Of a DNA stretch of 64,000 bases, positions 4,884 through 39,779 are shown piece by piece. Source of the DNA: Candidatus Omnitrophota bacterium (GTDB taxonomy: Bacteria; Omnitrophota; Gorgyraeia; 2-01-FULL-45-10); NCBI GenBank assembly GCA_041650935.1, contig JBAZKH010000001.1, positions 73,243 through 137,242 on the forward strand. The letters are read 5' to 3'. Both the position numbers and the translations under genes were made by a program. Numbering within the stretch: the first letter of the stretch is position 1; the number at the start of each line of letters is the position of its first letter. The notes under the pieces were generated by a model. That model saw only the letters and a list, made by a program, of their open reading frames with translations. It was not told the DNA's origin and made no database searches.

Positions 4884-6018
4884 GGCCAGGATCCTATATC
4901 TTGTTAACCACCTGCGCTACGGCGGCGCGGAGATAGGGCTCCTTACCACCCTCAAGAATATAGACCGGGCCAGGTTCGACTGCTCGGTGGTAAGCGTGGA
5001 GAAAAAGGGCGAGGTTGCCGAAGAGATAGAGAGCGCGGGGATACCGGTAACGTATCTCAATACGCGCTCCGCGCTCTATAATTTGCCGGCCATCCTGGCG
5101 GTCCTGGATATTATAAAGAAGGAGCGGCCCGACATACTGCATACATCGCTATTCTATTCGAATTTTTTCGGCAGGATCGCCGCGCTGATGCTCTTTGGAC
5201 CGAAGCCCATTATTATAACGGAAGAGCGGAGCATGTATACGGAAAAGCGGTTTTATCATGTTATTATAGATAACCTCCTTAGCCATGTGACCGACAGGAT
5301 AATAGCGTGCTCGAAATCGGTCGTCGATTTTACCGCGCGGCAGGAAGGAATAAGAAAAGAAAAGTTTCACCTTATCTATAATGCGGTTGATTCGACCAGG
5401 TTCGATATACCGGAAACCAAAGATGCGATAAGACGGCGGCGCGGGTTTTCGGAGAGAGATTTTATCGTTGGTACCGTCGGGTCAATTATACCCAAGAAAG
5501 GGCACAAGTTCCTGATAGACGCGTGCGCCGGTCTGGCCGGCGACATCCCGGAACTGAAATTGGTAATAGTGGGCGACGGCGAGATTAGGACGCGCCTTGA
5601 GCGTTACGTGAGCGCGCAGGGGCTGGCCCAGAAGATAAAATTCCCGGGCCAGAGAAAAGATGTACCGGAAATCGTAAAGATGATGGACGTATTTGTCCTG
5701 CCGTCTTTGCAGGAAGGTTTCCCCAGGACGCTTGTGGAGGCGATGTATGAGGCCCTGCCGGTCTGCGCCGCGCGGATAAGCGGCATACCGGAACTTATCC
5801 GTGACGGCGAGAACGGCTTTCTCTTCGAACCGGGCAATGTGACGGAGATAGCCGAAAAGATATTTATGCTATATAATAATGCGGACCTGCGTAACAGGAT
5901 CGGAGCGAGCGCCAGAAGGACGATAGAGTCAGGATATCTTCCGGCGGACTACCTTAAGAGCCTGGAAGGCCTTTACGTGGACTTATTAAAAAGAGGAACA
6001 TCGAAAGCGCGATGGTAA
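4861..6018 (+). CDS. Family 4 (GT-B) glycosyltransferase
   Basis: RILYLVNHLRYGGAEIG N-terminus; C-terminal GT4 region LPSLQEGFPRTLVEAMYEALPV...ENGFLFEPGN. The start is ambiguous: TTG at 4861 or GTG at 4873. Confidence 0.8.
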   Translation: MRCRVKNKARILYLVNHLRYGGAEIGLLTTLKNIDRARFDCSVVSVEKKGEVAEEIESAGIPVTYLNTRSALYNLPAILAVLDIIKKERPDILHTSLFYSNFFGRIAALMLFGPKPIIITEERSMYTEKRFYHVIIDNLLSHVTDRIIACSKSVVDFTARQEGIRKEKFHLIYNAVDSTRFDIPETKDAIRRRRGFSERDFIVGTVGSIIPKKGHKFLIDACAGLAGDIPELKLVIVGDGEIRTRLERYVSAQGLAQKIKFPGQRKDVPEIVKMMDVFVLPSLQEGFPRTLVEAMYEALPVCAARISGIPELIRDGENGFLFEPGNVTEIAEKIFMLYNNADLRNRIGASARRTIESGYLPADYLKSLEGLYVDLLKRGTSKARW

Positions 6019-7136
6019 AGAATAAGAATATAAGGATTCTTAACGTTGTGGGCGCCAGGCCCAATATGATGAAGATAGCTCCGCTTCTCGACGAGATGCG
6101 AAAGCGCAGGGAGATAGAGCCGCTCCTTCTCCATACGGGCCAGCATTACGACAGGCGGATGTCGAAAGTATTTTTCGAGGATCTTGCGATACCGGAACCG
6201 GACATATATCTGGGCTCGGGATCGGGGAGCCATGCCGAACAGACTGCCGGCATCATGGTCAAGCTGGAGCGCGTCCTTATGAAACTTGAGCCGGATCTCG
6301 TCGTGGTGGTCGGCGACGTAAATTCGACGCTTGCCGCCGCTATCACGGCCTCTAAACTCGCGATACCGGTTGCGCATGTCGAGGCGGGCCTGAGGAGCTT
6401 TGACAGGACGATGCCGGAAGAGATAAACCGTATAGTCACGGACAGCATATCCGATTATCTCTTTGCGCCGTCGCCGGATGCGGTAACGAACCTGATAAAC
6501 GAGGGTCATTCCCGCAGGCAGATATTTTTCGTCGGGAACATAATGATAGATACTTTGATGCGGCAGAGGTCCAGGGCAGAGCGCTCTGCGATACTGGAAA
6601 AGCTGGGCTTGGCGAAAGGCGAGTATGCGGCCCTTACGCTTCACCGCCCCGCAAATGTGGACGATCGCGCCAGCCTTGATAGTATCCTGACGGCCGTTGA
6701 GCGGATAGAGAAAGACATAAAGATAGTCTTCCCGATGCATTTGCGTACCAGGAAGATGGCGGAGCGGTTCGGTATGTTAAAGCGCATGCACAGGATGCGG
6801 AACGTTGTAATGACACACCCGTTGGGATATCTCGATTTTCTGAATATACTCTGCAAATCAAAATTCGTTCTTACCGATTCCGGAGGGATCCAGGAAGAGA
6901 CGACCGCGCTCGGTATACCGTGTATAACGTTACGTGACAATACCGAGAGGCCCTCGACTATAACGGTGGGGACTAACATACTCGCAGGCAATGATACAGT
7001 AAAGATAGTGCGGGCCGCCGGCAAGATCCTTAAGTCCGGCGGCAAACAGGGCAAGGTGCCGAAGTTTTGGGATGGCAGGACGTCCGGAAGGATAGTCGAC
7101 ATAATCACAAGAAAGGTTGGCCTAGCGCATGGATAA
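6012..7136 (+). CDS. wecB: UDP-N-acetylglucosamine 2-epimerase (non-hydrolysing)
   Basis: Motifs MKIAPLLDEM, LLHTGQHYD, DIYLGSGSGSHAEQTAGIM and HVEAGLRSFD are diagnostic of WecB/MnaA. Confidence 0.85.
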   Translation: MVKNKNIRILNVVGARPNMMKIAPLLDEMRKRREIEPLLLHTGQHYDRRMSKVFFEDLAIPEPDIYLGSGSGSHAEQTAGIMVKLERVLMKLEPDLVVVVGDVNSTLAAAITASKLAIPVAHVEAGLRSFDRTMPEEINRIVTDSISDYLFAPSPDAVTNLINEGHSRRQIFFVGNIMIDTLMRQRSRAERSAILEKLGLAKGEYAALTLHRPANVDDRASLDSILTAVERIEKDIKIVFPMHLRTRKMAERFGMLKRMHRMRNVVMTHPLGYLDFLNILCKSKFVLTDSGGIQEETTALGIPCITLRDNTERPSTITVGTNILAGNDTVKIVRAAGKILKSGGKQGKVPKFWDGRTSGRIVDIITRKVGLAHG

Positions 7137-8094
7137 AAGATTCAGGGTGCTTAACGGGAAGACGGTCCTTGTTACCGGCGGTGCCGGCGCCATCGGAGGG
7201 AACCTCGTAAAGTTTCTCTCCGCGCATGGCGCGAAGGTGGTCGTTATCGATGACCTCTCAGCCGGTTTCGCGGATAATCTTTCTTTAGGGCGGAAAGTGG
7301 TATTCTACGAAGATACCATCCTGAACGACGAGATCCTCAAGAAGGTCTTTAAGGAAAGGATAGACTATATCTTCCATCTGGCGGCACACTTTGCCAACCA
7401 GAATTCCATAGATCATCCCTGCGAAGATCTTTTAACGAATGCTCTCGGGACGCTGAAGCTTCTGGAGTACGGCCGGCGGCATGCGGTCAAGAGATTTATA
7501 TATGCTTCCTCGTCCTGCGTTTACGGTTCTACGGATAAAAAGATGACCGAAGACCTGATAACGAGACTGGAGACGCCATACGCCGTGTCTAAATTGACCG
7601 GCGAAGAATATGTCCATTTCTATCATCGTTATTACAGGATGAAAGCAACGGTCGTCCGGTATTTTAACGCATACGGGCCGGGAGACCCTCCGGGCAGGTA
7701 TCGCAACGTGATACCGAACTTCTTTATGCTGGCCGCTAAAGGCAAGCCGCTTGTAATAACGGGCACCGGCCGTGAGACGAGAGATTTTACGTTTATGGAT
7801 GATGTCATCCGCGGGACGGTGCTTACAGTCACCACAGACGCATCTATGGGCGAGATATATAATATAGGAAGCGGCAGGGAGACCGAGATACTGCGTCTTG
7901 CGAAATCGATAAATAAGATAACCGGCAGCAAGGCAGGCATAGAATTTACCGCCCTGCGTAAATGGGACGCTATACGGAAGAGGGTTGCCAACATAAAAAA
8001 GTCGCGGAATCAATTGGGCTATGAACCGGTCGTCGGGCTGGAGGACGGCCTTGCCAGGACGTGGACGTGGTTTAAGGAAAGGTACGGCGTTTAA
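7129..8094 (+). CDS. NAD-dependent sugar epimerase/dehydratase (SDR; UDP-glucuronate decarboxylase-like)
   Basis: VLVTGGAGAIGGNLV; catalytic SSSCVYG ... YAVSKLTGE (S/YxxxK). Confidence 0.8.
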   Translation: MDKRFRVLNGKTVLVTGGAGAIGGNLVKFLSAHGAKVVVIDDLSAGFADNLSLGRKVVFYEDTILNDEILKKVFKERIDYIFHLAAHFANQNSIDHPCEDLLTNALGTLKLLEYGRRHAVKRFIYASSSCVYGSTDKKMTEDLITRLETPYAVSKLTGEEYVHFYHRYYRMKATVVRYFNAYGPGDPPGRYRNVIPNFFMLAAKGKPLVITGTGRETRDFTFMDDVIRGTVLTVTTDASMGEIYNIGSGRETEILRLAKSINKITGSKAGIEFTALRKWDAIRKRVANIKKSRNQLGYEPVVGLEDGLARTWTWFKERYGV

Positions 8095-8097: not shown

Positions 8098-8832
8098 ATG
8101 ACGATAATACTCCTACCCGTTTATAACGAAGAAGAGAATATCGGTAAACTGCTGGAGCGTTTCGAGGCGCTGAAATTTTTTAAGAACGGGCTTAAGATAG
8201 TCCTTGTAAACGACGGGTCCAAAGACAGGTCTAAAGATGTCATAGAAACTTTCGCTCTCCGGCTGCCGATCCTTCTAGTAAATCACCCGGTCAATAAAGG
8301 CGTGACGGAGGCGATCAAGACAGGCCTTAACGAGGTCTCGAAATTTCTTAAGGATGACGACCTGGTCATTACCATGGATAGCGATAATACCCATGATCCG
8401 GCTTCGATCATAAACGTAATGGATAAATTCGACGAGGGCTACGATATAATAAACGGTTCCCGCTATTGCAAGGGCGGCAGTATGGTCGGGGTGCCGCTCT
8501 ACAGGTTATTCTTCAGTTATTCATGTAAGTTCCTCCTGACGAGAGTCTTTCCCATCGACGGGATACTGGACTATTCGATATTTTACAGGGGATACCGGGG
8601 GCGGCTCATACGCAAGGCCATCGAACTATACGGCGACAACCTTTTCCAGACAAAAGGTTTCGTGGGAATACCGGAACTGCTGATAAAAATGTCGCGTCTC
8701 GGCGGCCGCACCATCGAGATACCGCTAGTCGTAAGGTACGACATAAAATTAGGCGGTAGCAAGATGAAGGTTGCGAATACTGTCAAACACTATCTGGATA
8801 TGATATGGCTCTTAAAAAGACAGAAGCTGTAA
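8098..8832 (+). CDS. GT2 polyprenyl-phosphate glycosyltransferase (DPM1/GtrB/ArnC-like)
   Basis: ILLPVYNEEENIGKLLERF...VNDGSKDRS...TMDSDNTHDP is the DPM1/GtrB-type motif arrangement. Confidence 0.7.
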   Translation: MTIILLPVYNEEENIGKLLERFEALKFFKNGLKIVLVNDGSKDRSKDVIETFALRLPILLVNHPVNKGVTEAIKTGLNEVSKFLKDDDLVITMDSDNTHDPASIINVMDKFDEGYDIINGSRYCKGGSMVGVPLYRLFFSYSCKFLLTRVFPIDGILDYSIFYRGYRGRLIRKAIELYGDNLFQTKGFVGIPELLIKMSRLGGRTIEIPLVVRYDIKLGGSKMKVANTVKHYLDMIWLLKRQKL

Positions 8833-9617
8833 TGGCGAGAGATCACGAAGACTGGGATAAGATATGGGGCAGTGATCGCGTGCCCGACTGGGACTACCTT
8901 TCGCAGGTTATCCTGCGTATCCTGGAGGATGAGGCGGGTCCCATTAACGGCAAGGCTATGCTGGAGGCGGGCAGCGGCACGGGCAGGATATCGCTTAGAT
9001 TGGCCAGGGCGGGCGCGGCCGCAACACTGCTGGACAACTCCGCGCGCGCGATAGATTTTAGCAGCACGCTCTTTGCGCGCGACGGCAGGAAAGCCGTTAT
9101 AACCTGCGCGTCGATCGACGCGATGCCGTATGCCGCGGATTCTTTCGACGTCGTATGGAACGCCGGGGTGGTAGAGCATTTCATCGGCGGGGAGCAGGAC
9201 AGGGTATTAAAAGAGATGGCGCGGGTTTGCAGGCGGGGAGGGCTCATAGTTACGATAAATCCTTACGCAAAATCCATTCTCCACAGTTTCGGCAAATTTG
9301 TTATAGAACGGATGGGGCGGTACCCGTTCGGCGACGAAGTGCCCATAATAACGCTCAAGGATAAAGGCGGTATCCTGGGGTGCGAGCTGAAGAAACGCGA
9401 ATACTCCGCAGGCTTTATCGTGCTATGGGTGGGCATGTTCAAGAGACTGACATTGCTGCCGGCGGGAAAGATCTTCAGGCCCCTCGAGCGGTCGCTCAAC
9501 GCGATAGCCTGCTTTATCGACTCGTCTTTTTGCGGAAAAGTACTGCGGCGGGTAGATCTTATTCTCTCGAGGCTATTCGGCGGGTATCTGCTTGTAACGG
9601 TGTTTAAAAAGAGATGA
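8805..9617 (+). CDS. Class I SAM-dependent methyltransferase
   Basis: MLEAGSGTGRISLRLA (motif I) and VWNAGVVEHF. The start is either ATG 8805 or ATG 8832 (TAATG coupling). Confidence 0.65.
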   Translation: MALKKTEAVMARDHEDWDKIWGSDRVPDWDYLSQVILRILEDEAGPINGKAMLEAGSGTGRISLRLARAGAAATLLDNSARAIDFSSTLFARDGRKAVITCASIDAMPYAADSFDVVWNAGVVEHFIGGEQDRVLKEMARVCRRGGLIVTINPYAKSILHSFGKFVIERMGRYPFGDEVPIITLKDKGGILGCELKKREYSAGFIVLWVGMFKRLTLLPAGKIFRPLERSLNAIACFIDSSFCGKVLRRVDLILSRLFGGYLLVTVFKKR

Positions 9618-9624
9618 GGTAAGG

Positions 9625-11145
9625 TTGCCGGTACTATTTTTTATCATAGCGTTACTTTTCAGGATCCCCGGTCTGGCCAGGCCTACGATCATGGACGAGG
9701 CGAAAGCGCTTCTCTATGCTACGCTCCCCCTTAAAAAGCTGCTCGATTTATTGATCGTGGACTCTCAACCGCCGTTATATTTTTATATATTGAAATTCTG
9801 GTCCTGGATCTCGCCCGACCCATTCCGCCTGCGGCTGCTTACGGTATTTTTGGGAGCATTTATATGCGTGCTCCTATTCAGGATCGTAAAGAGACTTTAC
9901 GGCGTCCCGGCCGCGAACTATGCTTTTATATTCGCGGTCCTGTCGCCGCAGTTGATATTCCAGTCCCAGTATCTCAGGCCTTATTGTATGGGGACTTTCT
10001 TTTCCATACTTCTCGTATATCTTTTCATCGGGTTCATGTATGATGAAAAAAGGCAGCTCCTCTATGTCGGGATATTGGGTCTTGTAACGGCGTTTTGCCT
10101 ATACAGCTTCTACATGTCTATATTTATAGTAGCCGCTATGAATATTTTTGCCCTGTACTTTTTCTGGAAGAGGAAAGAAAAGCTCCTGTGCTGGATAGGA
10201 TCGCAGGCCATAGCCATGGCGTTATTTTCCTTTTGGTTTCCCGTATTTATGCTTCAGAAACGTCTTGTCGAAGAAGGTTTAACATGCCATCTGCTCGAGA
10301 TAAACAATGCCGGGATAGGTTTTTATGTAGGTAAGATACATGCCGGAGACCTGATAAGGGTCGCTATGGCGTATCTTCACTTCGACGATATCCTGGGAGA
10401 AGGGAGGAGGTACTCGGAATATATAAAAAATGTCCCGGTCTTCCTGGCCGTTATGTCTGCATTCGGCGCTCTGATAGCGGCTTGTGTCGTCAGGGGTGCC
10501 AGGGCTATGTTCAAAACGGAGCGCGTAAAGGGCGCCTCTCTTCTTCTAGTGCTATTAATGTTGGTGCCGGCTATTTCTTTTATCGCACTCTCGGTGGGAG
10601 GCGATCTGGGCTTATGGGGTTATGCCGTGGTAAATATAAGGTATTTCAGCCAAAGCTCCATATATGCCCTCGTATTATTAGCGGTCTTCTTAGCCGGCAT
10701 TACGAATAGACTGCTGAAGAGAGCCTTCTTCTCCGCCATTATCATAATCTTTATTTTGTTGGACCTTAATATTTATCGGCACCCTATGGAAATATACAGG
10801 CCGGCCGTAAAGTATCTCTCCGACGCGGGTAGAAACTGCCGCGTCGTAGTGCTGGGCCCACACAATGCCCTCGCGTTCCATAACCCGTTTTCCGACAAGC
10901 GGTTTTCTGATTATATCCTTCTGGAGTACGATGCCGATAAGAAAACGACCAGGGCAGTCAAAGAAAAGATAGGCAGTATCGATAAGCTCTATTTCTATTA
11001 TTTCAAATCCGCCGAAACAATGGTCCTCTTCCCGGACCTTGATACTAAGTTCGAAAAGTTCATCGGCGGTTTGGGATTTGTAAAGAAAAAGACGCGCAAA
11101 ATAAACGATATACTCTTCATCTCCTATTTCGAAAGGCGCCGGTAA
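9625..11145 (+). CDS. Polytopic membrane glycosyltransferase, GT-C fold (GT39/GT83 PMT/ArnT-like)
   Basis: TTG start after GAGGTAAGG. Many predicted TM helices. The early periplasmic-loop motif TIMDEAKALLYA matches the DE..YA signature of ArnT/PMT enzymes, which use polyprenyl-P-sugar donors. Confidence 0.55.
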   Translation: MPVLFFIIALLFRIPGLARPTIMDEAKALLYATLPLKKLLDLLIVDSQPPLYFYILKFWSWISPDPFRLRLLTVFLGAFICVLLFRIVKRLYGVPAANYAFIFAVLSPQLIFQSQYLRPYCMGTFFSILLVYLFIGFMYDEKRQLLYVGILGLVTAFCLYSFYMSIFIVAAMNIFALYFFWKRKEKLLCWIGSQAIAMALFSFWFPVFMLQKRLVEEGLTCHLLEINNAGIGFYVGKIHAGDLIRVAMAYLHFDDILGEGRRYSEYIKNVPVFLAVMSAFGALIAACVVRGARAMFKTERVKGASLLLVLLMLVPAISFIALSVGGDLGLWGYAVVNIRYFSQSSIYALVLLAVFLAGITNRLLKRAFFSAIIIIFILLDLNIYRHPMEIYRPAVKYLSDAGRNCRVVVLGPHNALAFHNPFSDKRFSDYILLEYDADKKTTRAVKEKIGSIDKLYFYYFKSAETMVLFPDLDTKFEKFIGGLGFVKKKTRKINDILFISYFERRR

Positions 11146-11149: not shown

Positions 11150-12070
11150 ATGGTCAACTTCATCAGGCGGAATAAATATCTGAAGATAGTGAAGAATATG
11201 CTTGAGAATGCGGTCTGTGCATTCAAGATAAAGGCCGGGCTGTATCGCCATGAATTTGGTTCGACGCATAAAGATTTTTCCGTTGCCGAGAGCCTTGCTT
11301 ATATCGACGCCGTCTTCGAGGACTATTTGAGATACGGCGGTATTTCCGCGGAGAAGTTGTCGGGTAAAACGGTGCTGGAGATCGGCCCCGGAGATAACCT
11401 CGGGGTTGCGCTTAAGTTTATCGCGTACGGCGCCGCCAGGGTAGTCTGCGTCGACAGGATCTATTCCGCCCGGGACAGGAAGAAAGAATTTGCCGTCTAT
11501 TCGGCGCTGAGGGAGAGTTTGGGCGGCGCGGAGATGAAATCCAGGTTCGATTCGGCCCTTGAGCTGGATAAAGGCGAATGCATCTTCAACGATAATAAAC
11601 TTGTCTATATTTACGGTTTGGATATAGGCGAGCGCGGCGCGGCGCTTAAAGAAGACAGCTTCGATTTAATAATATCACGGGCGGTCCTGGAGCACATCTA
11701 TAATATCGATTCAGCATTCGACTTTATGGATAGACACTTAAAAAGAGGCGGTTGCCATCTGCATAAGGTGGACCTGAGGGATCACGATATGTTTACCCGC
11801 GATGGGCATAATCCGCTGACGTTTTTAACGATACCGGAATTTTTCTGGAGCCTTATGACGCGGTATTCCGGTAAGCCGAACAGGCGCCGGGCGGATTATT
11901 TCGAAAAGAAATTGTCGGGGTTCGGGTATGACTACGATATCTCGATAACCAGTAAAGAGGATATGAGTTCCATAGATGCCGTAAGGCCCAAATTGGCCGC
12001 GGAGTTTAAGGGTCTGCCGGACGAGAATCTTCTCGTCGGCGGGATCTTTATCGCGGCAAGAAAGAAGTAG
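11150..12070 (+). CDS. Class I SAM-dependent methyltransferase
   Basis: VLEIGPGDNLGVALKFIAYGAARVVCVD (motif I) and ISRAVLEHI (motif II-like). Confidence 0.6.
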   Translation: MVNFIRRNKYLKIVKNMLENAVCAFKIKAGLYRHEFGSTHKDFSVAESLAYIDAVFEDYLRYGGISAEKLSGKTVLEIGPGDNLGVALKFIAYGAARVVCVDRIYSARDRKKEFAVYSALRESLGGAEMKSRFDSALELDKGECIFNDNKLVYIYGLDIGERGAALKEDSFDLIISRAVLEHIYNIDSAFDFMDRHLKRGGCHLHKVDLRDHDMFTRDGHNPLTFLTIPEFFWSLMTRYSGKPNRRRADYFEKKLSGFGYDYDISITSKEDMSSIDAVRPKLAAEFKGLPDENLLVGGIFIAARKK

Positions 12071-12076: not shown

Positions 12077-13510
12077 ATGAAAACAATTGGAAAGATACTG
12101 ATCGGGATATTGCTGGGGATTATATTCAGTTTCTTTCCGGGCGGATTTCTTGTCTTCTCAGTCTTCTTATCGGTACTATATTTTATGAACCGGTATCTAA
12201 ATACTCCGTCGAAAGATTTGTTGATAAAGTTATTTATGCTGGGCTTTGCGGTGAGGGTAATTATGGCGTTCGTGAATTATTACGTTGCCGTCGATGTGAT
12301 GCATGACGGCGTCGATACCCAGCCCGACGCAGTCATCTATAATAACAACGCTTATTATATAGCCAATCACCTGAAACCATTCGATAACTATTCGGAAGAT
12401 ATAACCAGAGACCAAAGACTAAAGCTCAGCATGGAGCGTGCGAAGAAGTGGCAAGGTAACAGGATCCCGCCTGTGGGGTCGTATCAGAATGGGTTTTATG
12501 TATTCGTTATAGGGCTCTTCTATTCATGGCTGGGATACTGCCCTATAGCGGCTAAGGTCATGAATTGCATCTTTGGATGCGGGTGTGCGGTATTGACCTA
12601 CTTTATAGCTAAGCATTTGTCCGGTTCCGAGACAATTGCAAAGGCATCCTATGTTGTCACCATGTTCTTCCCATCGCTTATGCTATGGTCGGCTACCCTT
12701 CTGCGTGATTCGATAGCCAATTTTTTATTCCTTGCTTATATGCTATCGTGTCTTCTCTATCTTAAATTTGGAAGAAACCGGGCTTTGCCGGCGGCTTTTG
12801 CAATGATAGTCCTGCTGGCTCTCTTCAGGTTGAAGATAGAGCCTATCCTGACGGCAGGGCTGGGGATCGTAATAATCGCGGGTTTATTGAAAAAGTTCTT
12901 CCCCGCGAAGCGGCTGACAGTTTTTTTTGCGGTTATATTCATTCTTATTATTTCGGCGGTTATGATTGGAAAGAACATCGACTTTGTGACCAACCAGGTA
13001 AATAGTAAGATCGTATTGGCATTCAAGCACCATCAGGCTTATTCGACGCACGATGTGGCATCCGTCTATAAGATATTCAAGGGAGATCTTTACGGGAAGG
13101 CAAATATGAATATCCGTGATTTTCTCGACGTCTCTTTATGTTTTTCCATGCTTAAAGGCCTGGCCTACTATTTTCTATCCCCGTTCCCGTGGCGGATACC
13201 ATGGAATCATTTCTGGCTGTTGATCTTCTATCCCCAGGTTATCGTAACATTTATCTTTCTGCCGTTTATAGCGCTGGGGCTGCTGGTGTCGGCGCGCCGC
13301 GATATTTACGTAACCGCAGTTATGCTGACGGTTTTGGCCATCGTTATCCTGCCTAATGTATTTTCGGAAGGAGTTATCGGTATCGTAGTGCGTCACAGGG
13401 ACATGTTCACGCCATTTTTGATTATCTTCGCGAGCTATGGTTTCTACTCGCTGATGCTGCCAAAAAAGCATCCGGAGGATGTATATCCCATCGGGAGGGA
13501 TGCCCGATGA
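12077..13510 (+). CDS. Polytopic integral membrane protein (putative GT-C glycosyltransferase or glycan polymerase)
   Basis: At least 10 hydrophobic segments and no recognisable soluble catalytic motif. Located inside the glycan cluster. Confidence 0.4.
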   Translation: MKTIGKILIGILLGIIFSFFPGGFLVFSVFLSVLYFMNRYLNTPSKDLLIKLFMLGFAVRVIMAFVNYYVAVDVMHDGVDTQPDAVIYNNNAYYIANHLKPFDNYSEDITRDQRLKLSMERAKKWQGNRIPPVGSYQNGFYVFVIGLFYSWLGYCPIAAKVMNCIFGCGCAVLTYFIAKHLSGSETIAKASYVVTMFFPSLMLWSATLLRDSIANFLFLAYMLSCLLYLKFGRNRALPAAFAMIVLLALFRLKIEPILTAGLGIVIIAGLLKKFFPAKRLTVFFAVIFILIISAVMIGKNIDFVTNQVNSKIVLAFKHHQAYSTHDVASVYKIFKGDLYGKANMNIRDFLDVSLCFSMLKGLAYYFLSPFPWRIPWNHFWLLIFYPQVIVTFIFLPFIALGLLVSARRDIYVTAVMLTVLAIVILPNVFSEGVIGIVVRHRDMFTPFLIIFASYGFYSLMLPKKHPEDVYPIGRDAR

Positions 13511-14961
13511 ATATCGTCCTGATATATCCGCTTCTGTCCAGACAGAGGAGCCTCGTCGACGAGAATAAGCAGTATTGGCCTCCTCTGGGCCTGGCGTATA
13601 TAGCCGCGGTCCTGGAGAGGAACGGCCATAAGGTAACTATTATAGACAGGGATGCGCTGCTTCACAGGCAATCGATGTCTTTTGAAAGGACGGACGAGGA
13701 GACGTTGGGCACGATAAAGCGGGTACGGGCAGATATCGTCGGGTTCAGCGCTACGACGCCCAATATAGCGGATGTCTTCGCCTTGTCGACAAAGATCAAA
13801 AAGATTTCCAGGGAAATAAAGATAGTGCTCGGAGGCCCTCACTCGACGGGTGAGCCGGAACTCACTCTCAAGCTTACGGATGATATAGATGCGGTTTGCA
13901 GGGGCGAGGGCGAATTTACGATGCTCGATCTGGCCGGCGGCAAAGGGTTAAAAGAGACCGCGGGCCTGAGCTTCAAATCCGGTCCGGAGATAGTACATAA
14001 CCCGGAGAGGATGCTTATAAACAATATAGACGATCTGCCGGCCCCGGCGCATCATCTGCTCGACATGGAGTTTTACTTAAGGCCCAGCAGGTTCACCAGC
14101 AGGAACCTGAGTCTGCGCACGACGTCCATCTTTACCGCGAGGGGCTGCCCCTACAGGTGCAATTTCTGCGCGGGCCCGCTCATCTTCTCCGGTAAGGTGA
14201 GGTTCCATTCCGCCGGACGGGTTATCGGCGAGGTGGAACGTTTAATAACCGACTACGGGATCGAAGCGCTATATTTTGCCGAAGATATGTTTTTGAGCGA
14301 CAGGCGAAGGGCCGGTGAGATACTGGAGCTATTTGTGCGTAACGGTATAAATAAGCGGTTGCGCTGGTTTGCCCAGGCAAAAGTGAATGTGATAGACAGG
14401 GATCTTCTTATGCTCATGAAGAGTGCCGGCTGTGCAGGCATCGAATATGGTTTCGAATCCGGTTCGCAGGCGATATTGGATAAGATGAATAAGAGAAGTA
14501 CCGTCGAGGATAATATAAAAGCGGCAAAACTGACGCAGGCGGCGGGTTTAAGGTACCAGGCGAACATAATAGCGGGGTATCCCGGCGAGACGGAACGCGA
14601 TTTCGAACTTACGATCGATTTTCTGAAGAAGATAAAACCCGGCAATATCGGGTTCAATCTATTCATGGCGCTTCCCGGCACGCCCGAGTATATAAAGCTG
14701 AAGAAAACAGGGGATATCTCTTATGACTGGGAGAATGTGGGCAACCCGGAGGGTGGTAAAAATTATACCGCAATGAGCGACCGGGTCTTCCAAAAGATGT
14801 ATGCCAGGGCCAGGCTCAGCGTGATTCTTCCCCTTAATCTGGCGAATTTTATAAGGTATAATATCAGGAACCCGCTCAGGTTCATATATCTTATCCTGAC
14901 ACAATCGCGGGGAATAATAGTCAAGACTGTCCGCTCCGACCTGAAGAGGCTCTTAAGATGA
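13507..14961 (+). CDS. B12-binding domain radical SAM enzyme (class B)
   Basis: N-terminal Rossmann-like B12-binding region (NIVLIYP...LAYIAAVLERNGHKVTIID). Canonical cluster motif ARGCPYRCNFCAG. ~480 aa. Confidence 0.8.
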   Translation: MNIVLIYPLLSRQRSLVDENKQYWPPLGLAYIAAVLERNGHKVTIIDRDALLHRQSMSFERTDEETLGTIKRVRADIVGFSATTPNIADVFALSTKIKKISREIKIVLGGPHSTGEPELTLKLTDDIDAVCRGEGEFTMLDLAGGKGLKETAGLSFKSGPEIVHNPERMLINNIDDLPAPAHHLLDMEFYLRPSRFTSRNLSLRTTSIFTARGCPYRCNFCAGPLIFSGKVRFHSAGRVIGEVERLITDYGIEALYFAEDMFLSDRRRAGEILELFVRNGINKRLRWFAQAKVNVIDRDLLMLMKSAGCAGIEYGFESGSQAILDKMNKRSTVEDNIKAAKLTQAAGLRYQANIIAGYPGETERDFELTIDFLKKIKPGNIGFNLFMALPGTPEYIKLKKTGDISYDWENVGNPEGGKNYTAMSDRVFQKMYARARLSVILPLNLANFIRYNIRNPLRFIYLILTQSRGIIVKTVRSDLKRLLR

Positions 14962-17209: not shown

Positions 17210-19102
17210 ATGTGCGGTATTTGCGGAATTATAAATAATAGACCCGGGATCGCGGGTGAAAATGCGGTCAGGGCAATGTCGGATAAGCTGATCCATAGGG
17301 GTCCTGATGATGCCGGGATATATCGGGATAAGGCTTCTTTGCCGGAAGCGGTGCTGGGCCACAGGCGTCTTAGCATAATAGACTTAAGTCCGCGCGGGCA
17401 TCAGCCCATGTCGAATGAAGACGGCACTATATGGCTCGTAATGAACGGGGAGATCTATAATTACAGGGAACTAAAACTCGAGCTTGAAGCGAAGGGGCAC
17501 AAATTCAGCTCCAATACCGACACCGAAACGGTGGTACATCTGTATGAGGAATACGGTGAGGAATGCGTTACGCGCTTGAGGGGAATGTTCGCATTCGCCG
17601 TATGGGATGCCGGGAAAAAAATGCTGATGGCGGCCAGGGACAGGGTTGGGAAGAAGCCGCTGGTCTATTATCATGACGGCGGAACATTCTGTTTCGCGTC
17701 CGAGCTCGCCTCGCTGCTTGCAAGCGGTCTTATAAAGACCGATATAAATCACGAAGCCATAGACAACTATCTCACGCTTGGTTATATACCGGCGCCGTTG
17801 ACCGCTTATCGACGGATCCTGAAACTGCCGCCGGCGCATATCCTCACCTTCCGGGATAACAAGGTGACGATAAAGCGTTACTGGGAACTGGACTACTCCA
17901 ATAAGATCAAAATTACCGAAGGGGAAGCGGCCGAAGAGGTCTTGAAGCTGCTAAGAGAAGCCGTCAAGATAAGGCTCTACAGCGATGTCCCGCTGGGAGC
18001 CTTCTTAAGCGGCGGGATAGACTCGAGCGCGGTAGTTGCTTTGATGAGCAGGGTAAGCCCGGCCAGAGTCAAGACCTTTTCGATAGGCTTCGAAGAGAAG
18101 GCGTATAACGAGCTATCGTATGCGCGCTCCGTGGCGGAGCGGTTCGGCACAGAACATCACGAGTTTATCGTAAGACCCGACGCAATGGCTATCCTGCCCG
18201 CGCTGGTCGAGAGATACGGCGAGCCCTATGCTGACTCCTCCTGCATACCAACTTATTATGTCGCGAAAGAGACCAAACGGTATGTCACGGTTGCGTTAAA
18301 CGGAGACGGAGGGGACGAGTCGTTTGCGGGGTACGAACGTTATCAGGCTATGATAGCTTCGAAGATATATCGAATAGTGCCGCAACCGCTGCGCAAAGTA
18401 TTTAAAGGCGCTATGCAAGCCCTGCCCGGTTCCATGGACTATAAGAACAATCTGATAAGGATACAGAGATTCCTCGAGGGAGTAGAACTGCCGACGCTCC
18501 AGCGGTATGCGCGGTGGGTAAGTATCTTTAATCCAGGGATTAAAGATACTATGTATACAGCAGAGTTCAAGGCCGGACTTTCCGGCGAAGGCCATCTCGG
18601 ATTACTGCGGCCTTATATTGAAGGCAGTGGTAAGATCGACCTTCTGGACCGCATTCTCATGGCAGATGTGAATACATATCTCCCGGATGATCTTCTGGTG
18701 AAAGTGGATATAGCGAGCATGGCCAATTCGTTGGAGGCCCGTTCGCCGTTTCTCGACCACAAGCTTATGGAATTCGCCGCAGCCCTGCCTCCACAATATA
18801 AGATGAGGAATTTTGTCAAAAAACATATTTTAAAGAAGGCTCTCAAAGGCCTGGTGCCGGCGGGCAATCTTCACAGGCGGAAGATGGGCTTCGGGATGCC
18901 CGTCGGCGCATGGTTCAGGGGAGAGCTCAAAGGTTTCGTCAGGGATACTATCCTCTCCGGTAATTCTTTTTGCAGCCTTTATTTTAACGGGGAGGCTGTG
19001 CGTAAGATGATAGATGACAATGCGGAGATGAAGAGAGATCATACATACCGTCTCTGGGCGCTTTTGATGCTTGAACTATGGTATCAGAAGCAGGAGCTGT
19101 AA
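17210..19102 (+). CDS. asnB: Asparagine synthetase (glutamine-hydrolysing) family amidotransferase
   Basis: MCGICGII with the N-terminal nucleophile Cys2; PP-loop SGGIDSS; ~630 aa. In glycan clusters such homologs amidate sugar carboxylates. The ORF-track start at 17081 is an out-of-domain extension. Confidence 0.85.
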   Translation: MCGICGIINNRPGIAGENAVRAMSDKLIHRGPDDAGIYRDKASLPEAVLGHRRLSIIDLSPRGHQPMSNEDGTIWLVMNGEIYNYRELKLELEAKGHKFSSNTDTETVVHLYEEYGEECVTRLRGMFAFAVWDAGKKMLMAARDRVGKKPLVYYHDGGTFCFASELASLLASGLIKTDINHEAIDNYLTLGYIPAPLTAYRRILKLPPAHILTFRDNKVTIKRYWELDYSNKIKITEGEAAEEVLKLLREAVKIRLYSDVPLGAFLSGGIDSSAVVALMSRVSPARVKTFSIGFEEKAYNELSYARSVAERFGTEHHEFIVRPDAMAILPALVERYGEPYADSSCIPTYYVAKETKRYVTVALNGDGGDESFAGYERYQAMIASKIYRIVPQPLRKVFKGAMQALPGSMDYKNNLIRIQRFLEGVELPTLQRYARWVSIFNPGIKDTMYTAEFKAGLSGEGHLGLLRPYIEGSGKIDLLDRILMADVNTYLPDDLLVKVDIASMANSLEARSPFLDHKLMEFAAALPPQYKMRNFVKKHILKKALKGLVPAGNLHRRKMGFGMPVGAWFRGELKGFVRDTILSGNSFCSLYFNGEAVRKMIDDNAEMKRDHTYRLWALLMLELWYQKQEL

Positions 19103-19251
19103 TGAGCTATTCTCCGTCCGGCCCGGATAAATTTATCCTCCTTCGCAGAAAACCCCGGGCTTTCAAGCTCAAAGATGAACGCGCAGGCCGCGGCGGTGAC
19201 GAACATCGAATTGCAGGGTTTTCTGCTCCGGAGGATTCCGCCAACAGGCGA

Positions 19252-20190: not shown

Positions 20191-20218
20191 AGAACGCAGT
20201 TAATTCTGGAGAGTGAAT

Positions 20219-31640: not shown

Positions 31641-31659
31641 TTTAAGGAGGGGTTCTACA

Positions 31660-32778: not shown

Positions 32779-32785
32779 GTGCCGG

Positions 32786-34722: not shown

Positions 34723-34805
34723 CCGAATGTCAAGAATATCATATTTGTAAATGTGAATTTGGTAATTCGACGTTGTGTCTAATTTCGATATTCGTATTTT
34801 GAGTT
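34660..34805. repeat. AT-rich element with terminal inverted repeats and reiterated (A)ATTTCGAAAT(C) words; related to the element at 52040-52165
   Basis: Left arm AAATACGAATTTCGAAAT versus right arm AATTTCGATATTCGTATTT (near-perfect reverse complement). Internal AATTTCGAAATCC occurs twice, plus CCGAAACAA. Confidence 0.45.
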
Positions 34806-34827
34806 TTTTTGTAAAAGTGAGGCATCG

Positions 34828-36537: not shown

Positions 36538-36554
36538 CTGGAAAAGAGAGCTAT

Positions 36555-37571: not shown

Positions 37572-37587
37572 ACAGGTAGAGTCAGTT

Positions 37588-39718: not shown

Positions 39719-39779
39719 AAAAATAGGAGACAATTTAAATGGTAAATACAGGTATTAGTATAACCAGAGAAGGTGCTGA

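What the first reader, a model, noticed from the sequence alone, without database searches (positions are those of the whole stretch)
8098..11145. DPM1-like GT2 paired with an ArnT/PMT-like GT-C membrane transferase (and a second such pair at 39.8-43.6 kb): extracytoplasmic glycosylation module
8098-8832 and 39780-40481 have the polyprenyl-phosphate sugar synthase pattern (YNE...NDGSKD/DYSTDGT...DxD(N/L)xxDP). 9625-11145 is a multi-TM protein with the DE..YA loop motif of ArnT/PMT GT-C enzymes, which use polyprenyl-P-monosaccharides as donors. The polytopic proteins at 12077-13510 and 42261-43646 may play the same role. Together this predicts that single sugars are flipped on a lipid carrier and added to a glycan, lipid A or protein on the outer face of the membrane. 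That is distinct from the Wzy/WecA pathway also encoded here.
Basis: inference. Interest (0 to 1): 0.55.

Follow-up and report, generated by a model that had tools for sequence, protein, structure and literature searches.

The report
Lipid-linked sugar synthases paired with periplasmic glycosyltransferases
In a 46-kb cell-envelope sugar gene cluster of an uncultured Omnitrophota bacterium, two enzymes that probably load single sugars onto a membrane lipid carrier sit beside three membrane enzymes that probably move such sugars onto surface glycans outside the cytoplasm; this is a well-known strategy in bacteria, here with unusual radical-SAM and methyltransferase genes interleaved.

Summary
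8098-8832 and 39780-40481 encode GT2 enzymes of the polyprenyl-phosphate sugar synthase type. Their best solved relatives are P. furiosus Dol-P-Man synthase, GtrB and ArnC, and their DSD/DAD motifs align on the catalytic DAD. None of the other eight GT2s in the cluster shows this signature. All three polytopic proteins are GT-C glycosyltransferases. 9625-11145 and 42261-43646 pass the Pfam PMT_2 threshold. 12077-13510, annotated 'hypothetical', is a divergent GT-C by family-level Pfam hits, profile comparison and predicted fold. None resembles Wzy or a transporter.

The source is a Candidatus Omnitrophota MAG. Module B lies in a block syntenic across 79 Omnitrophota loci, with heptosyltransferases, a Wzy_C ligase-like gene and a GmhB-like phosphatase, so LPS core or lipid A is its likely acceptor. 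Module A (GT2-MT-GT-C-MT-GT-C-rSAM) recurs in other genomes and probably decorates a polysaccharide.

No flippase was found.

Verdict: new members of a known kind (GtrB/ArnC plus GT-C systems). The possible tailoring of lipid-linked sugars is untested. Interest is moderate.

The parts
6012..7136 (+). UDP-GlcNAc 2-epimerase (WecB-like). It lies directly upstream of module A and is a possible supplier of its nucleotide sugar.
   Evidence: PF02350 at 9.4e-113. The link to module A is inferred from adjacency only.
7129..8094 (+). NAD-dependent sugar epimerase/dehydratase (GalE-like). Its end is 3 nt upstream of GT2_A.
   Evidence: PF01370 at 7.9e-58. GalE scores 167.5 bits, below the cutoff.
8098..8832 (+). 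GT2_A: a polyprenyl-phosphate sugar synthase-type GT2 (DPM1/GtrB/ArnC-like), 244 aa, with no TM helix and a DSD motif.
   Evidence: PF00535 at 4e-21. Best NCBIfam hits are ArnC, PgfS and PpgS. Best solved relatives are PfDPMS 5mlz at 2.9e-18 over residues 4-240, then GtrB and ArnC. No TM helix. The orthologue keeps its position in L088 and L003.
8805..9617 (+). MT1: a class I SAM-dependent methyltransferase with a hydrophobic C-terminal extension.
   Evidence: PF08241 at 5.2e-18. The position between GT2_A and GTC_A is conserved in L088, where the homologue is 65% identical.
9625..11145 (+). GTC_A: a GT-C glycosyltransferase (PMT_2 type), 506 aa. D24 and E25 are invariant in the first external loop. 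It has a C-terminal alpha/beta domain.
   Evidence: PF13231 at 34.6 bits, above the 26.1 cutoff. AF2 model pLDDT 72.9. The top 33 Foldseek hits are all GT-C, including ArnT 5f15 at 1.8e-5 with TM 0.50. The family profile weakly matches EmbC at 0.0027.
11150..12070 (+). MT2: a methyltransferase-domain protein.
   Evidence: PF13489 at 2.3e-9. The position after GTC_A is conserved in L088, where the homologue is 55% identical.
12077..13510 (+). polyA2: a divergent GT-C glycosyltransferase, 477 aa, publicly annotated as hypothetical. Q82 and D84 are invariant in the external loop, and there is an R439-H440-R441 motif.
   Evidence: No direct Pfam hit. 9 of 19 family members hit PMT_2 and 5 of 19 hit PMT. 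hhalign against the GTC_B family gives probability 94.5 and E 8e-8. AF2 pLDDT 82.9. The top 13 Foldseek hits are all GT-C, best E 7e-3. It is always followed by GT4-GT4-AsnB in 6 other loci.
13507..14961 (+). rSAM_A: a B12-binding-domain radical SAM enzyme, a candidate sugar-tailoring enzyme.
   Evidence: PF02310 at 1.3e-24 and PF04055 at 2.3e-21. CPYRCNFC motif. Best NCBIfam hit is HpnJ at 183 bits, far below the 577 cutoff.
39780..40481 (+). GT2_B: a polyprenyl-phosphate sugar synthase-type GT2, 233 aa, with no TM helix and a DAD motif.
   Evidence: PF00535 at 2e-35. AglJ at 4e-31 and PpgS at 3e-19. PfDPMS at 2.3e-17 over residues 5-212, then ArnC. Of the 48 Omnitrophota ORFs assigned to GT2_B, most score 320-445 bits, and D91, D93, R120 and R206 are at least 95% conserved.
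40483..41862 (+). rSAM_B: a B12-binding-domain radical SAM enzyme inserted between GT2_B and small_B/GTC_B.
   Evidence: PF04055 at 3.9e-29 and PF02310 at 4.1e-12. The best solved relative is the sugar diol-dehydratase AprD4 at 8.9e-20, followed by 9ccb, RimO and TM_1862, then the methylases CysS and TokK. The same position is seen in 19 of 56 related loci.
41850..42254 (+). small_B: an uncharacterised 134-aa protein with one N-terminal TM helix. It is a constant neighbour of GTC_B.
   Evidence: Immediately upstream of the GTC_B homologue in 77 of 79 loci. No Pfam hit in 17 of 17 members. No PDB relative. Sources name it 'hypothetical protein'.
42261..43646 (+). GTC_B: a GT-C glycosyltransferase (PMT_2 type), 461 aa, with invariant D135, K285, E287 and R438. 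It belongs to a large family.
   Evidence: PF13231 at 28.6 bits, above the 26.1 cutoff. 29 of 40 family members hit PMT_2, best 2.7e-13. 5080 cluster representatives at E <= 1e-3.
43643..44203 (+). GmhB-like HAD-IIIA phosphatase (heptose 1,7-bisphosphate phosphatase type). It overlaps the end of GTC_B by 4 nt.
   Evidence: NF006506 at 161.7 bits, below the 178 cutoff. TIGR01656 at 124 bits, above the 84 cutoff. It is the next gene downstream of the GTC_B homologue in 55 of 66 loci.
27159..30489 (+). Context for module B: a WecA-like initiating transferase, a Wzy_C (O-antigen ligase/polymerase family) protein and a GT9 heptosyltransferase.
   Evidence: PF00953 at 6.7e-36. PF04932 at 1.6e-17 and PF01075 at 2.3e-28. 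Heptosyltransferase II scores 127.9 bits against a cutoff of 134.6. GT9 lies upstream of the GTC_B homologue in 28 of 37 loci, and Wzy_C in 23 of 37.
19078..21679 (+). A third B12-binding radical SAM (20213-21679), directly after a TuaG-like GT2 (19078-20190) that is not DPM1-like.
   Evidence: Pfam. NCBIfam. CPFSCTFC motif, and 27-30% identity to the other two rSAMs.

Best explanation
The window carries two extracytoplasmic glycosylation modules of the GtrB/ArnC-plus-GT-C kind. They sit inside a roughly 46-kb cell-envelope glycan supercluster of a Candidatus Omnitrophota bacterium.

Proposed mechanism. Only the family and fold assignments below are shown; every reaction step, including the first, is inferred from them.
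1. On the cytoplasmic face, a TM-less DPM1/PpgS-like GT2 (GT2_A or GT2_B) transfers one sugar from a nucleotide sugar to polyprenyl phosphate.
2. The polyprenyl-P-sugar is flipped across the membrane by a flippase that has not been identified.
3. On the periplasmic face, a PMT_2-type GT-C (GTC_A and polyA2 in module A; GTC_B, probably working with the small membrane protein small_B, in module B) transfers the sugar to an acceptor. It would use the invariant acidic residue of its first external loop.

Likely acceptors, by inference from synteny:
- Module B: LPS core or lipid A. The block small_B-GTC_B-GmhB lies downstream of heptosyltransferases and a Wzy_C ligase-like gene throughout Omnitrophota.
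- Module A: side-chain decoration of an O-antigen-like or exopolysaccharide chain. It is embedded among GT4, AsnB-like and other GT2 genes.

The interleaved SAM-dependent enzymes (MT1, MT2 and the B12-binding radical SAMs) are cytoplasmic. If they act on the sugars delivered by this route, they must do so before the flip, on the nucleotide sugar or on the lipid-linked sugar. This last step is speculative.
For: GT2 identity and specificity:
- The best solved relatives of both GT2s are PfDPMS (2.9e-18 and 2.3e-17, covering the whole catalytic domain), GtrB and ArnC.
- The best curated families are ArnC, PgfS, PpgS, AglJ and Dol-P-hexose transferase.
- None of the eight other GT2s in the cluster hits any of these families at 1e-8 or better.
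- DSD/DAD, the GSR arginine and the A-loop arginine align with residues that are functional in PfDPMS (PMC5526996).

GT-C identity:
- Pfam PMT_2 is above threshold for GTC_A and GTC_B.
- Family-level PMT_2 or PMT hits: 29 of 40 for GTC_B and 9 of 19 for polyA2.
- The predicted folds match only GT-C enzymes at the top of the hit lists.
- The GTC_B and polyA2 family profiles align at 94.5% probability, superposing invariant D135 and D84.

Pairing is conserved:
- GT2_A-MT1-GTC_A-MT2 recurs in L088, and GT2_A-like followed by GTC_A-like recurs in L003.
- A DPM1-like GT2 lies within 3 genes upstream of the GTC_B homologue in 34 of 56 loci, and within 10 kb in 27 of 37.
- A GtrB-architecture GT2, then a rSAM, then a PMT_2 protein precede polyA2 homologues in L003 and L087. 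L085 and L086 hold the same three gene types in a different order (rSAM before the GT2), with extra genes between the GT2 and the PMT_2 protein.

LPS context of module B:
- GmhB-like phosphatase is the next gene downstream in 55 of 66 loci, GT9 is upstream in 28 of 37, and Wzy_C in 23 of 37.

Precedent: three-component systems, including auxiliary enzymes that act on the lipid-linked sugar, are established in other bacteria (PMC11127046).
Against: - No flippase of the GtrA, SMR, MATE or Wzx type is present in the 64-kb window.
- Neither GT2 has the C-terminal TM helices found in GtrB, ArnC and PfDPMS, so how they associate with the membrane is unexplained.
- GT2_A has Thr where PfDPMS has the metal ligand Gln93. 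Both GT2s lack the Lys178 equivalent.
- All NCBIfam scores are far below the equivalog cutoffs, so the donor sugar is unknown.
- None of the three GT-C proteins shows significant sequence similarity to solved ArnT or PMT chains. The fold match of polyA2 is weak (best E 7e-3, TM 0.43).
- 22 of 56 GTC_B loci have no DPM1-like GT2 within three genes.
- The acceptors are inferred from synteny only.
Confidence: 0.7

Rival explanations
1. Protein O-glycosylation, as in the actinobacterial Ppm1/Pmt or eukaryotic DPM1/PMT pathway. The GT2s would make polyprenyl-P-mannose or a similar donor, and the GT-C enzymes would glycosylate secreted or envelope proteins rather than glycans or lipid A.
For: - NCBI names GTC_A and GTC_B 'glycosyltransferase family 39 protein'.
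- 5 of 19 polyA2 family members hit PF02366 PMT.
- A neighbouring 551-aa GT-C in L086 hits both PMT and PMT_2.
- GTC_A has an invariant Asp-Glu pair in loop 1. From my own knowledge, this pair is also typical of PMTs.
- Pmt1-Pmt2 and Pmt4 are among the fold matches.
Against: - All five genes sit inside polysaccharide or LPS gene clusters. Module B is syntenic with heptosyltransferase, Wzy_C ligase-like and GmhB genes in most Omnitrophota loci.
- No sequence-level match to solved PMTs.
- OST, ArnT and ALG enzymes score as well as or better than PMTs in the fold searches.
- Lys178 of PfDPMS, which contacts the mannose, is not conserved in either GT2.
Confidence: 0.1
2. The adjacency is coincidental. 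The two GT2s would be ordinary cytoplasmic Leloir transferases that extend the Und-PP-linked repeat unit. The GT-C proteins would work independently, using donors made elsewhere or Und-PP-linked oligosaccharides.
For: - The cluster holds ten GT2 genes and many other GTs, so some GT2 will lie near any given gene.
- All curated-family scores are far below cutoff.
- 22 of 56 GTC_B loci lack a DPM1-like GT2 within three genes.
- In L001 the GTC_A orthologue is flanked by rSAMs, not by a DPM1-like GT2.
Against: - Only these two of the ten GT2s have the polyprenyl-P-sugar synthase signature, and they are exactly the two next to GT-C genes.
- The match to PfDPMS spans the acceptor-binding half of the domain, including the Arg117 equivalent.
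- The GT2_A-MT1-GTC_A-MT2 order is conserved at 55-79% identity in L088.
- GtrB-architecture GT2s accompany other PMT_2 genes in L003 and L085-L087.
Confidence: 0.12
3. Module B is a lipid A modification system strictly analogous to ArnC/ArnT. It would add a sugar, possibly cationic, to the lipid A phosphates to change surface charge, rather than adding a core or O-chain decoration.
For: - ArnC is among the best hits of both GT2s.
- ArnT 5f15/5ezm is among the best fold matches of the GT-C models.
- The module sits in an LPS-core-like locus.
Against: - No ArnA, ArnB or ArnD homologues, or formyltransferase/aminotransferase genes, lie next to module B. The Fmt-like gene at 49762-50694 lies outside the cluster, beyond UDG and PriA.
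- No ArnE/F-type flippase is present.
- GTC_B has no sequence similarity to ArnT.
- This is a special case of the best explanation rather than a true alternative.
Confidence: 0.15

Closest known systems
GtrA/GtrB/GtrC-type three-component glycosylation systems. Examples are O-antigen glucosylation in Shigella and Salmonella, CsbB/GtcA/YfhO in Gram-positives, and the pentofuranose systems of PMC11127046.
   Same: A GT2 polyprenyl-P-sugar synthase is encoded next to a polytopic GT-C-type transferase inside a surface-glycan cluster. Other loci of the same phylum use GT2s of about 300 aa with two C-terminal TM helices, which is the GtrB architecture. PMC11127046 also gives a precedent for auxiliary cytoplasmic enzymes acting on the lipid-linked sugar.
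   Different: No flippase gene is present. The window's own synthases lack TM helices. The GT-C proteins are PMT_2-type rather than classical GtrC proteins. Methyltransferase and B12-radical SAM genes are interleaved.
ArnC/ArnT (Und-P-L-Ara4FN synthase and lipid A aminoarabinose transferase, GT83). Related lipid A and core systems are RgtE/RgtA-D and FlmF/FlmK; these are cited from my own knowledge.
   Same: ArnC is among the best sequence matches of both GT2s. ArnT is among the best fold matches of the GT-C models. Module B lies in an LPS-core-like locus.
   Different: There are no ArnA, B, D, E or F genes. There is no sequence-level similarity to ArnT. GTC_B lacks a large periplasmic domain and instead has an obligate small neighbour gene.
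Mycobacterial PpgS (Rv3631) / Rv3632 / Rv3630, and streptococcal GacI/GacJ/GacL. Both are cited from my own knowledge.
   Same: The polyprenyl-P-HexNAc synthase is short (about 230 aa) and TM-less. The PpgS model matches GT2_B over nearly its full length at 3e-19. A small membrane protein and a GT-C are encoded alongside.
   Different: small_B has one TM helix plus a soluble domain of about 105 aa and belongs to no known family. It tracks the GT-C (77 of 79 loci) rather than the synthase. It was not tested whether it stimulates the synthase.
Dol-P-Man synthase DPM1 with PMT (GT39) protein O-mannosyltransferases.
   Same: The closest solved relative of both GT2s is P. furiosus DPMS. The Pfam family names and the NCBI name ('family 39') point here. 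GTC_A has the loop-1 Asp-Glu pair.
   Different: The genomic context is LPS and polysaccharide. Mannose-contacting Lys178 is not conserved. There are no MIR domains. There is no sequence match to solved PMTs.

Membership tests
Polyprenyl-phosphate glycosyltransferase subgroup of GT2 (DPM1 / GtrB / ArnC / PpgS type) | GT-A catalytic domain of family GT2 | tested here: met
   PF00535 at 4e-21 (GT2_A) and 2e-35 (GT2_B).
Polyprenyl-phosphate glycosyltransferase subgroup of GT2 (DPM1 / GtrB / ArnC / PpgS type) | DXD motif (DAD in DPMS and GtrB) aligned on the catalytic metal and diphosphate site | tested here: met
   MDSDNTHDP (GT2_A) and QDADLEYDP (GT2_B) align on MDADLQHPP of PfDPMS (motif role from PMC5526996). 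D91 and D93 are invariant in 48 GT2_B homologues. The Gln93 ligand is Thr in GT2_A and Glu in GT2_B.
Polyprenyl-phosphate glycosyltransferase subgroup of GT2 (DPM1 / GtrB / ArnC / PpgS type) | Similarity extends over the acceptor-binding half of the domain, including the Arg that binds the polyprenyl phosphate (PfDPMS Arg117), and is specific relative to other GT2s | tested here: met
   The alignments cover residues 4-240 and 5-212. The GSR arginine is conserved. Control: none of 8 other GT2s in the cluster hits ArnC, PgfS, PpgS, AglJ or Dol-P-hexose transferase at 1e-8 or better.
Polyprenyl-phosphate glycosyltransferase subgroup of GT2 (DPM1 / GtrB / ArnC / PpgS type) | C-terminal transmembrane helices anchoring the enzyme (GtrB, ArnC and PfDPMS architecture) | tested here: not met
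   No hydrophobic 19-mer reaches a Kyte-Doolittle mean of 1.3 in either protein. This is the TM-less architecture of human DPM1, PpgS and GacI (own knowledge). Related Omnitrophota loci do carry the 2-TM form.
Polyprenyl-phosphate glycosyltransferase subgroup of GT2 (DPM1 / GtrB / ArnC / PpgS type) | Score above the curated cutoff of a specific equivalog (which would define the sugar) | tested here: not met
   The best scores are 62 bits against a 529 cutoff (ArnC, GT2_A) and 108.5 against 325 (AglJ, GT2_B). The donor sugar is undetermined.
Polyprenyl-phosphate glycosyltransferase subgroup of GT2 (DPM1 / GtrB / ArnC / PpgS type) | Formation of a polyprenyl-P-monosaccharide in vitro | not testable with these tools
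   This requires a biochemical assay.
GT-C fold glycosyltransferases, PMT_2 / ArnT-like group (PF13231) | Polytopic membrane protein (7-13 TM helices) | tested here: met
   Hydropathy scan. AF2 secondary structure shows about 11-13 long helices in GTC_A and polyA2.
GT-C fold glycosyltransferases, PMT_2 / ArnT-like group (PF13231) | Pfam PF13231 match above the gathering threshold | tested here: met
   GTC_A scores 34.6 bits and GTC_B 28.6 bits against a cutoff of 26.1. polyA2 itself has no hit (not met for that protein), but 9 of 19 of its family members match PMT_2 at E <= 1, best 5.7e-6.
GT-C fold glycosyltransferases, PMT_2 / ArnT-like group (PF13231) | GT-C fold | tested here: met
   GTC_A model: the top 33 Foldseek PDB hits are all GT-C, best 6.2e-6. 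polyA2 model: the top 13 are all GT-C but weak, best 7e-3 with TM 0.43. It is linked to polyA2 by hhalign at probability 94.5.
GT-C fold glycosyltransferases, PMT_2 / ArnT-like group (PF13231) | Invariant acidic residue in the first extracytoplasmic loop | tested here: met
   D24 and E25 in GTC_A, D84 in polyA2 and D135 in GTC_B. The loop location is inferred from the hydropathy scan, the positive-inside rule and the AF2 helices. It was not tested experimentally or with a dedicated topology predictor.
CAZy GT83 (ArnT) or GT39 (PMT) in the strict sense | Significant sequence similarity to characterised ArnT or PMT enzymes | tested here: not met
   Single-sequence and profile searches against all PDB chains, which include ArnT and Pmt1/2/4, gave no ArnT or PMT hit. 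The only hit was EmbC at 0.0027 for the GTC_A profile. These proteins are better treated as unclassified GT-C families.
Three-component (synthase / flippase / GT-C) glycosylation system | Dedicated flippase gene (GtrA, SMR/ArnEF or MATE type) in the locus | tested here: not met
   No such Pfam family appeared among any of the ORFs scanned across the window. A Wzx-type gene occurs near polyA2 homologues in L085-L087 but not in the window.

The most novel reading that the evidence does not exclude
In Omnitrophota the classical three-component pathway may have been extended by tailoring enzymes that act on the lipid-linked monosaccharide. A B12-binding radical SAM enzyme (plus class I methyltransferases in module A) would modify the polyprenyl-P-sugar made by the GT2, for example by C-methylation or deoxygenation. 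This would happen before the sugar is flipped and transferred by the GT-C. The route would deliver sugars to LPS or polysaccharide that no nucleotide-sugar pathway provides.

Alongside this, the uncharacterised small_B protein would be an obligate subunit of a new GT-C family. Alternatively, it would be the membrane tether of the TM-less synthase.
Probability: 0.2. Interest if true: 0.7.

Novelty: new member of a known kind. Interest (0 to 1): 0.4.

Why it matters
Periplasmic addition of single sugars from polyprenyl-phosphate donors is a main source of surface-antigen diversity and of lipid A remodelling. This window shows that the uncultured, often host-dependent Omnitrophota use the strategy heavily, with three GT-C genes in a single cluster.

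It also assigns a GT-C identity to a protein family that is publicly annotated as hypothetical. And it shows that one module (small_B-GTC_B-GmhB) is part of a phylum-wide LPS-core-like locus.

The recurrent insertion of B12-binding radical SAM genes between synthase and GT-C has no characterised counterpart. That statement rests on the literature searches and my own knowledge. If these enzymes tailor the lipid-linked sugar, it would be a new way of making modified envelope sugars. Without that, the finding is a sound but ordinary annotation.

Tried and rejected
1. small_B as a split-off version of the C-terminal soluble domain seen in GTC_A. hhalign of a 67-sequence small_B profile against the GTC_A, polyA2 and GTC_B family profiles gave probabilities of 1.5% or lower. 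An earlier run used a wrong flag and is discarded. This idea is rejected at the sequence level.

2. small_B as a member of a known family. No Pfam hit in 17 of 17 members. No PDB hit better than E 0.2. Only 'hypothetical protein' names in sources.

3. Direct sequence link of the GT-C proteins to solved ArnT, PMT or PglB. Single-sequence and profile searches were negative, apart from a marginal EmbC segment.

4. Wzy or transporter identity for the polytopic proteins. There are no such Pfam hits, and ABC and MFS folds appear only at probability 0.1 or lower.

5. A flippase in the window. None was found.

6. Horizontal-transfer island. GC is flat at 0.46-0.53 across the window.

7. tRNA or Rfam elements. 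None.

8. Literature linking radical SAM enzymes with GT-C or polyprenyl-sugar systems or O-antigen clusters. Nothing relevant was found. The Omnitrophota-plus-LPS search and the Lipocone preprint gave nothing on these genes.

10. Assigning the radical SAMs to a reaction class. The best curated hits (HpnJ, Sden_1168 P-methyltransferase, BchE, ApyD) are all far below cutoff. The solved relatives mix a sugar dehydratase (AprD4) with methylases (CysS, TokK) and methylthiotransferases. The reaction type is left open.

Full report
**Source and setting.** The window is from a Candidatus Omnitrophota MAG. The proteins encoded at 12077-13510 and 41850-42254 are identical to NCBI entries WC522_00390 and WC522_00515 on a 710-kb contig.

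All genes from about 0.6 to 46.4 kb lie on the + strand with tiny gaps or overlaps. Together they form one large envelope-glycan cluster. Its contents are:
- nucleotide-sugar enzymes: cytidylyltransferases, an RmlD-like protein, WecB and several SDR epimerases/dehydratases;
- ten GT2 genes, six GT4-type (GT-B) genes and one GT9 heptosyltransferase;
- a WecA-like initiating transferase and a Wzy_C protein;
- an AsnB-like amidotransferase, a carbamoyltransferase and three class I methyltransferases;
- three B12-binding radical SAM proteins and a GmhB-like phosphatase.

Housekeeping genes (UDG, PriA, Fmt and others) follow from 46.4 kb. GC content is flat, so there is no sign of a foreign island. 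There are no tRNA or Rfam hits.

**Check of the observation.**
- The two GT2s are real: PF00535 at 4e-21 and 2e-35.
- Two of the three polytopic proteins pass the PMT_2 (PF13231) gathering threshold of 26.1 bits: 9625-11145 at 34.6 bits and 42261-43646 at 28.6 bits.
- The third, 12077-13510, has no direct family hit.
The Y-A is not conserved in the family.

**Are the GT2s of the DPM1 type?** Yes, and specifically so.
- Against all PDB chains, the best match of both is P. furiosus Dol-P-Man synthase (2.9e-18 and 2.3e-17). Next come GtrB (sll0501) and ArnC.
- The alignments cover the whole catalytic domain (residues 4-240 and 5-212), not only the nucleotide-binding half.
- MDSDNTHDP and QDADLEYDP align on MDADLQHPP. 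According to PMC5526996 this is the 89-DADLQH-94 metal and diphosphate site.
- The GSR arginine aligns with Arg117, which binds the dolichyl phosphate. An arginine also aligns with Arg202 of the acceptor loop in GT2_B.
- Differences from PfDPMS: Gln93 is Thr in GT2_A and Glu in GT2_B, and mannose-contacting Lys178 is not conserved. The sugar is therefore probably not mannose and remains unknown.
- Among curated NCBIfam models the top hits are ArnC, PgfS, PpgS, AglJ and Dol-P-hexose transferase, all far below the equivalog cutoffs.
- As an internal control I scanned the other eight GT2s of the cluster. None hits any of these families at 1e-8 or better. They match TuaG, EpsD, EpsE, WcaA, MftF or rhamnosyltransferase models instead.
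- Neither protein has a TM helix, unlike GtrB, ArnC and PfDPMS.
- ORFs assigned to GT2_B in 48 other Omnitrophota loci are nearly all about 231 aa. Most are strongly conserved (320-445 bits), and D91, D93, R120, D155, E183 and R206 are at least 95% conserved.

**Are the polytopic proteins GT-C enzymes?** Yes, all three.
- *GTC_A (9625-11145).* The AF2 model, built from six sequences, has pLDDT 72.9. It matches only GT-C enzymes in the top 33 Foldseek hits: STT3, ALG9, ArnT 5f15 (1.8e-5, TM 0.50), Pmt4, PglB, AglB, DPY19, AftD and AftA. Its family profile weakly matches EmbC at 0.0027.
- *polyA2 (12077-13510).* The family has about 20 members, all Omnitrophota-like. Of 19 members, 9 hit PMT_2 and 5 hit PMT. 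The AF2 model has pLDDT 82.9, and its top 13 matches are all GT-C but weak (PglB at 7e-3, TM 0.43).
- *GTC_B (42261-43646).* It belongs to a large family, with 5080 cluster representatives at E <= 1e-3. Of 40 sampled members, 29 hit PMT_2, the best at 2.7e-13.
- *Links between the families.* The GTC_B and polyA2 profiles align at 94.5% probability (E 8e-8), superposing ESYD135A on TQPD84A. Links to GTC_A are weaker, at 20-31% probability, but fall on the PMT_2 core.
- *Conserved acidic residue.* Each family has an invariant acidic residue just after a TM helix (D24/E25, D84, D135). By hydropathy, charge distribution and model helices, this loop is the first external loop of the GT-C core.
- *What they are not.* No Wzy, MATE, MFS or other transporter signal was seen. 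None of the three is similar in sequence to solved ArnT or PMT chains. They are unclassified GT-C families, whatever the NCBI label 'family 39' suggests.

**Genomic context of module B.** A pattern search in one genome per species returned 80 loci, and 79 carried a scorable GTC_B homologue. All are from Omnitrophota or PVC-labelled MAGs. I assigned every ORF to its best-matching window protein.
- A small_B homologue is immediately upstream in 77 of 79 loci.
- The GmhB-like phosphatase is the next gene downstream in 55 of 66.
- A DPM1-like GT2 is within three genes upstream in 34 of 56, and within 10 kb in 27 of 37.
- A GT9 heptosyltransferase is upstream in 28 of 37, and Wzy_C in 23 of 37.
- The usual order is Wzy_C - GT9 - several GT2s - [GT2_B] - [rSAM] - small_B - GTC_B - GmhB - [epimerase] - MGDG-synthase-like - UDG - PriA.
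- The phosphatase scores 161.7 bits on the GmhB equivalog (cutoff 178) and passes the HAD-IIIA domain models. The GT9 scores 127.9 on heptosyltransferase II (cutoff 134.6).

I infer that module B belongs to a conserved LPS-core-like locus and that its acceptor is most likely LPS core or lipid A. This is inference from synteny only.

**Genomic context of module A.**
- The order GT2_A - MT1 - GTC_A - MT2 is repeated on an independent contig, L088, at 79, 65, 59 and 55% identity.
- In L003 an MT, a GT2_A-like protein (249 aa) and a GTC_A-like protein are adjacent.
- polyA2 homologues in six other loci are always followed by GT4, GT4 and AsnB. Upstream they have some combination of MBOAT, a GT2_B-like GT2 of about 300 aa with two C-terminal TM helices (the GtrB architecture), a B12-rSAM, a PMT_2 protein of about 551 aa and a methyltransferase.
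- The pairing of a polyprenyl-P-sugar synthase with a GT-C is therefore a recurrent theme in these clusters, not an accident of one genome.

1. *Three paralogous B12-binding radical SAM proteins* (27-30% identical, each with CxxxCxxC).
   - In module B the rSAM sits exactly between GT2_B and small_B. The same arrangement occurs in 19 of 56 related loci, and 19 of the 20 rSAM-containing neighbourhoods also have the DPM1-like GT2.
   - Fisher's test gives p = 6e-5 for adjacency and 0.004 for presence anywhere in the locus. Neither is corrected for phylogeny.
   - The coupling is not strict. The rSAM changes position in some loci (L008, L016, L027). Another rSAM follows a TuaG-like GT2 in the window. 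In L001, rSAMs flank the GTC_A orthologue without a DPM1-like GT2.
   - Their best solved relative is the sugar diol-dehydratase AprD4. The methylases CysS and TokK follow further down the list. The best curated hits (HpnJ, P-methyltransferases, BchE, ApyD) are far below cutoff. The reaction type is open.
2. *Two class I methyltransferases inside module A*, whose positions are conserved in L088.
3. *small_B*, an uncharacterised protein with one TM helix that accompanies GTC_B almost without exception.

**Mechanism.** The best-supported model is the known three-component logic.
- A GT2 charges polyprenyl phosphate with a sugar on the cytoplasmic face.
- The lipid-linked sugar is flipped across the membrane.
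- A GT-C transfers the sugar to an acceptor in the periplasm.
- What is shown here: the family and fold assignments, the catalytic motifs, the specificity control and the conserved gene pairing.
- What is inferred: the activities, the topology and the acceptors (LPS core or lipid A for module B, a polysaccharide side chain for module A).
- The flippase is missing from the window. This is a gap rather than a refutation, because such flippases are often encoded elsewhere or remain unknown.
- SAM and radical SAM chemistry is confined to the cytoplasm. Any tailoring of the sugars delivered by this route must therefore act on the nucleotide sugar or on the lipid-linked sugar. PMC11127046 documents exactly this kind of auxiliary step, with epimerases acting on undP-ribofuranose. 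It notes that such auxiliaries were otherwise unknown in O-antigen side-chain systems.
- A radical SAM auxiliary would be new. I put this at about 20%.

**Comparison and novelty.**
- The system works like GtrB/GtrC, ArnC/ArnT, PpgS/Rv3630 or GacI/GacL.
- It is not a strict member of GT83 or GT39, because sequence similarity to those enzymes was tested and not found.
- The synthases lack the GtrB-type anchor.
- Two of the GT-C genes and one GT2 are already generically named in GenBank. polyA2 and small_B are listed as 'hypothetical'.
- I classify the finding as new members of a known kind. It has a moderately interesting, untested variant (radical SAM and methyltransferase tailoring, and a small obligate partner).

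**Scores.** Interest 0.4. Confidence in the general mechanism 0.7.

Noticed in passing
window 13507-14961, 20213-21679, 40483-41862; also L001, L003, L084-L087: There are three paralogous B12-binding radical SAM genes in one glycan cluster. In other Omnitrophota loci such genes alternate with PMT_2 GT-C genes, for example rSAM-PMT_2-rSAM-PMT_2 in L001. No characterised counterpart was found in the literature searches.
   Followed up: partly
window 41850-42254: This is an uncharacterised 134-aa protein with one N-terminal TM helix (motifs LYEFL.FC and RRA.YYLYP). It lies immediately upstream of the GTC_B homologue in 77 of 79 Omnitrophota loci. It has no Pfam, PDB or named relatives.
   Followed up: partly
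window 27159-46416, and L004-L083: A long syntenic block is conserved across Omnitrophota: Wzy_C, GT9, several GT2s, small_B, GTC_B, GmhB-like, MGDG-synthase-like, UDG, PriA. An envelope-glycan locus is thus fixed next to the replication-restart helicase PriA.
   Followed up: partly
window 9625-11145, residues ~390-506: The C-terminal alpha/beta domain of the GTC_A model gives secondary Foldseek matches to class I methyltransferase folds (for example 3i9f, aligned over 159 columns, TMt 0.40). This is probably a generic Rossmann-like resemblance of the periplasmic domain.
   Followed up: no
window 637-1317 and 1083-2054: Two ORFs with cytidylyltransferase (PF02348) matches overlap by 235 nt in different frames. 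This could be a mis-called start, a frameshift or a split gene.
   Followed up: no
window 21815-23680: This is a 621-aa fusion of a GT4-type glycosyltransferase with a C-terminal DUF218 domain. Homologues recur downstream of the polyA2 block in L085 and L087.
   Followed up: no
window 34828-36537: A carbamoyltransferase (NodU/CmcH type) sits among the GT2 genes and is conserved in several related loci. This suggests carbamoylated sugars in the glycan.
   Followed up: no
L003, L084-L087 (upstream of polyA2 homologues): An MBOAT acyltransferase, an unannotated protein of about 293 aa and a transglutaminase-core protein recur beside the GT2-rSAM-PMT_2 genes. The window itself lacks them.
   Followed up: no
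window 49082-49761: A 680-bp stretch between PriA and Fmt has no long ORF and no tRNA or Rfam hit. This is unusually long for this tightly packed window.
   Followed up: no
window 52194-53231 and 53234-54238: Two tandem paralogous genes of the galactose-1-phosphate uridylyltransferase/HIT family lie just outside the glycan cluster.
   Followed up: no
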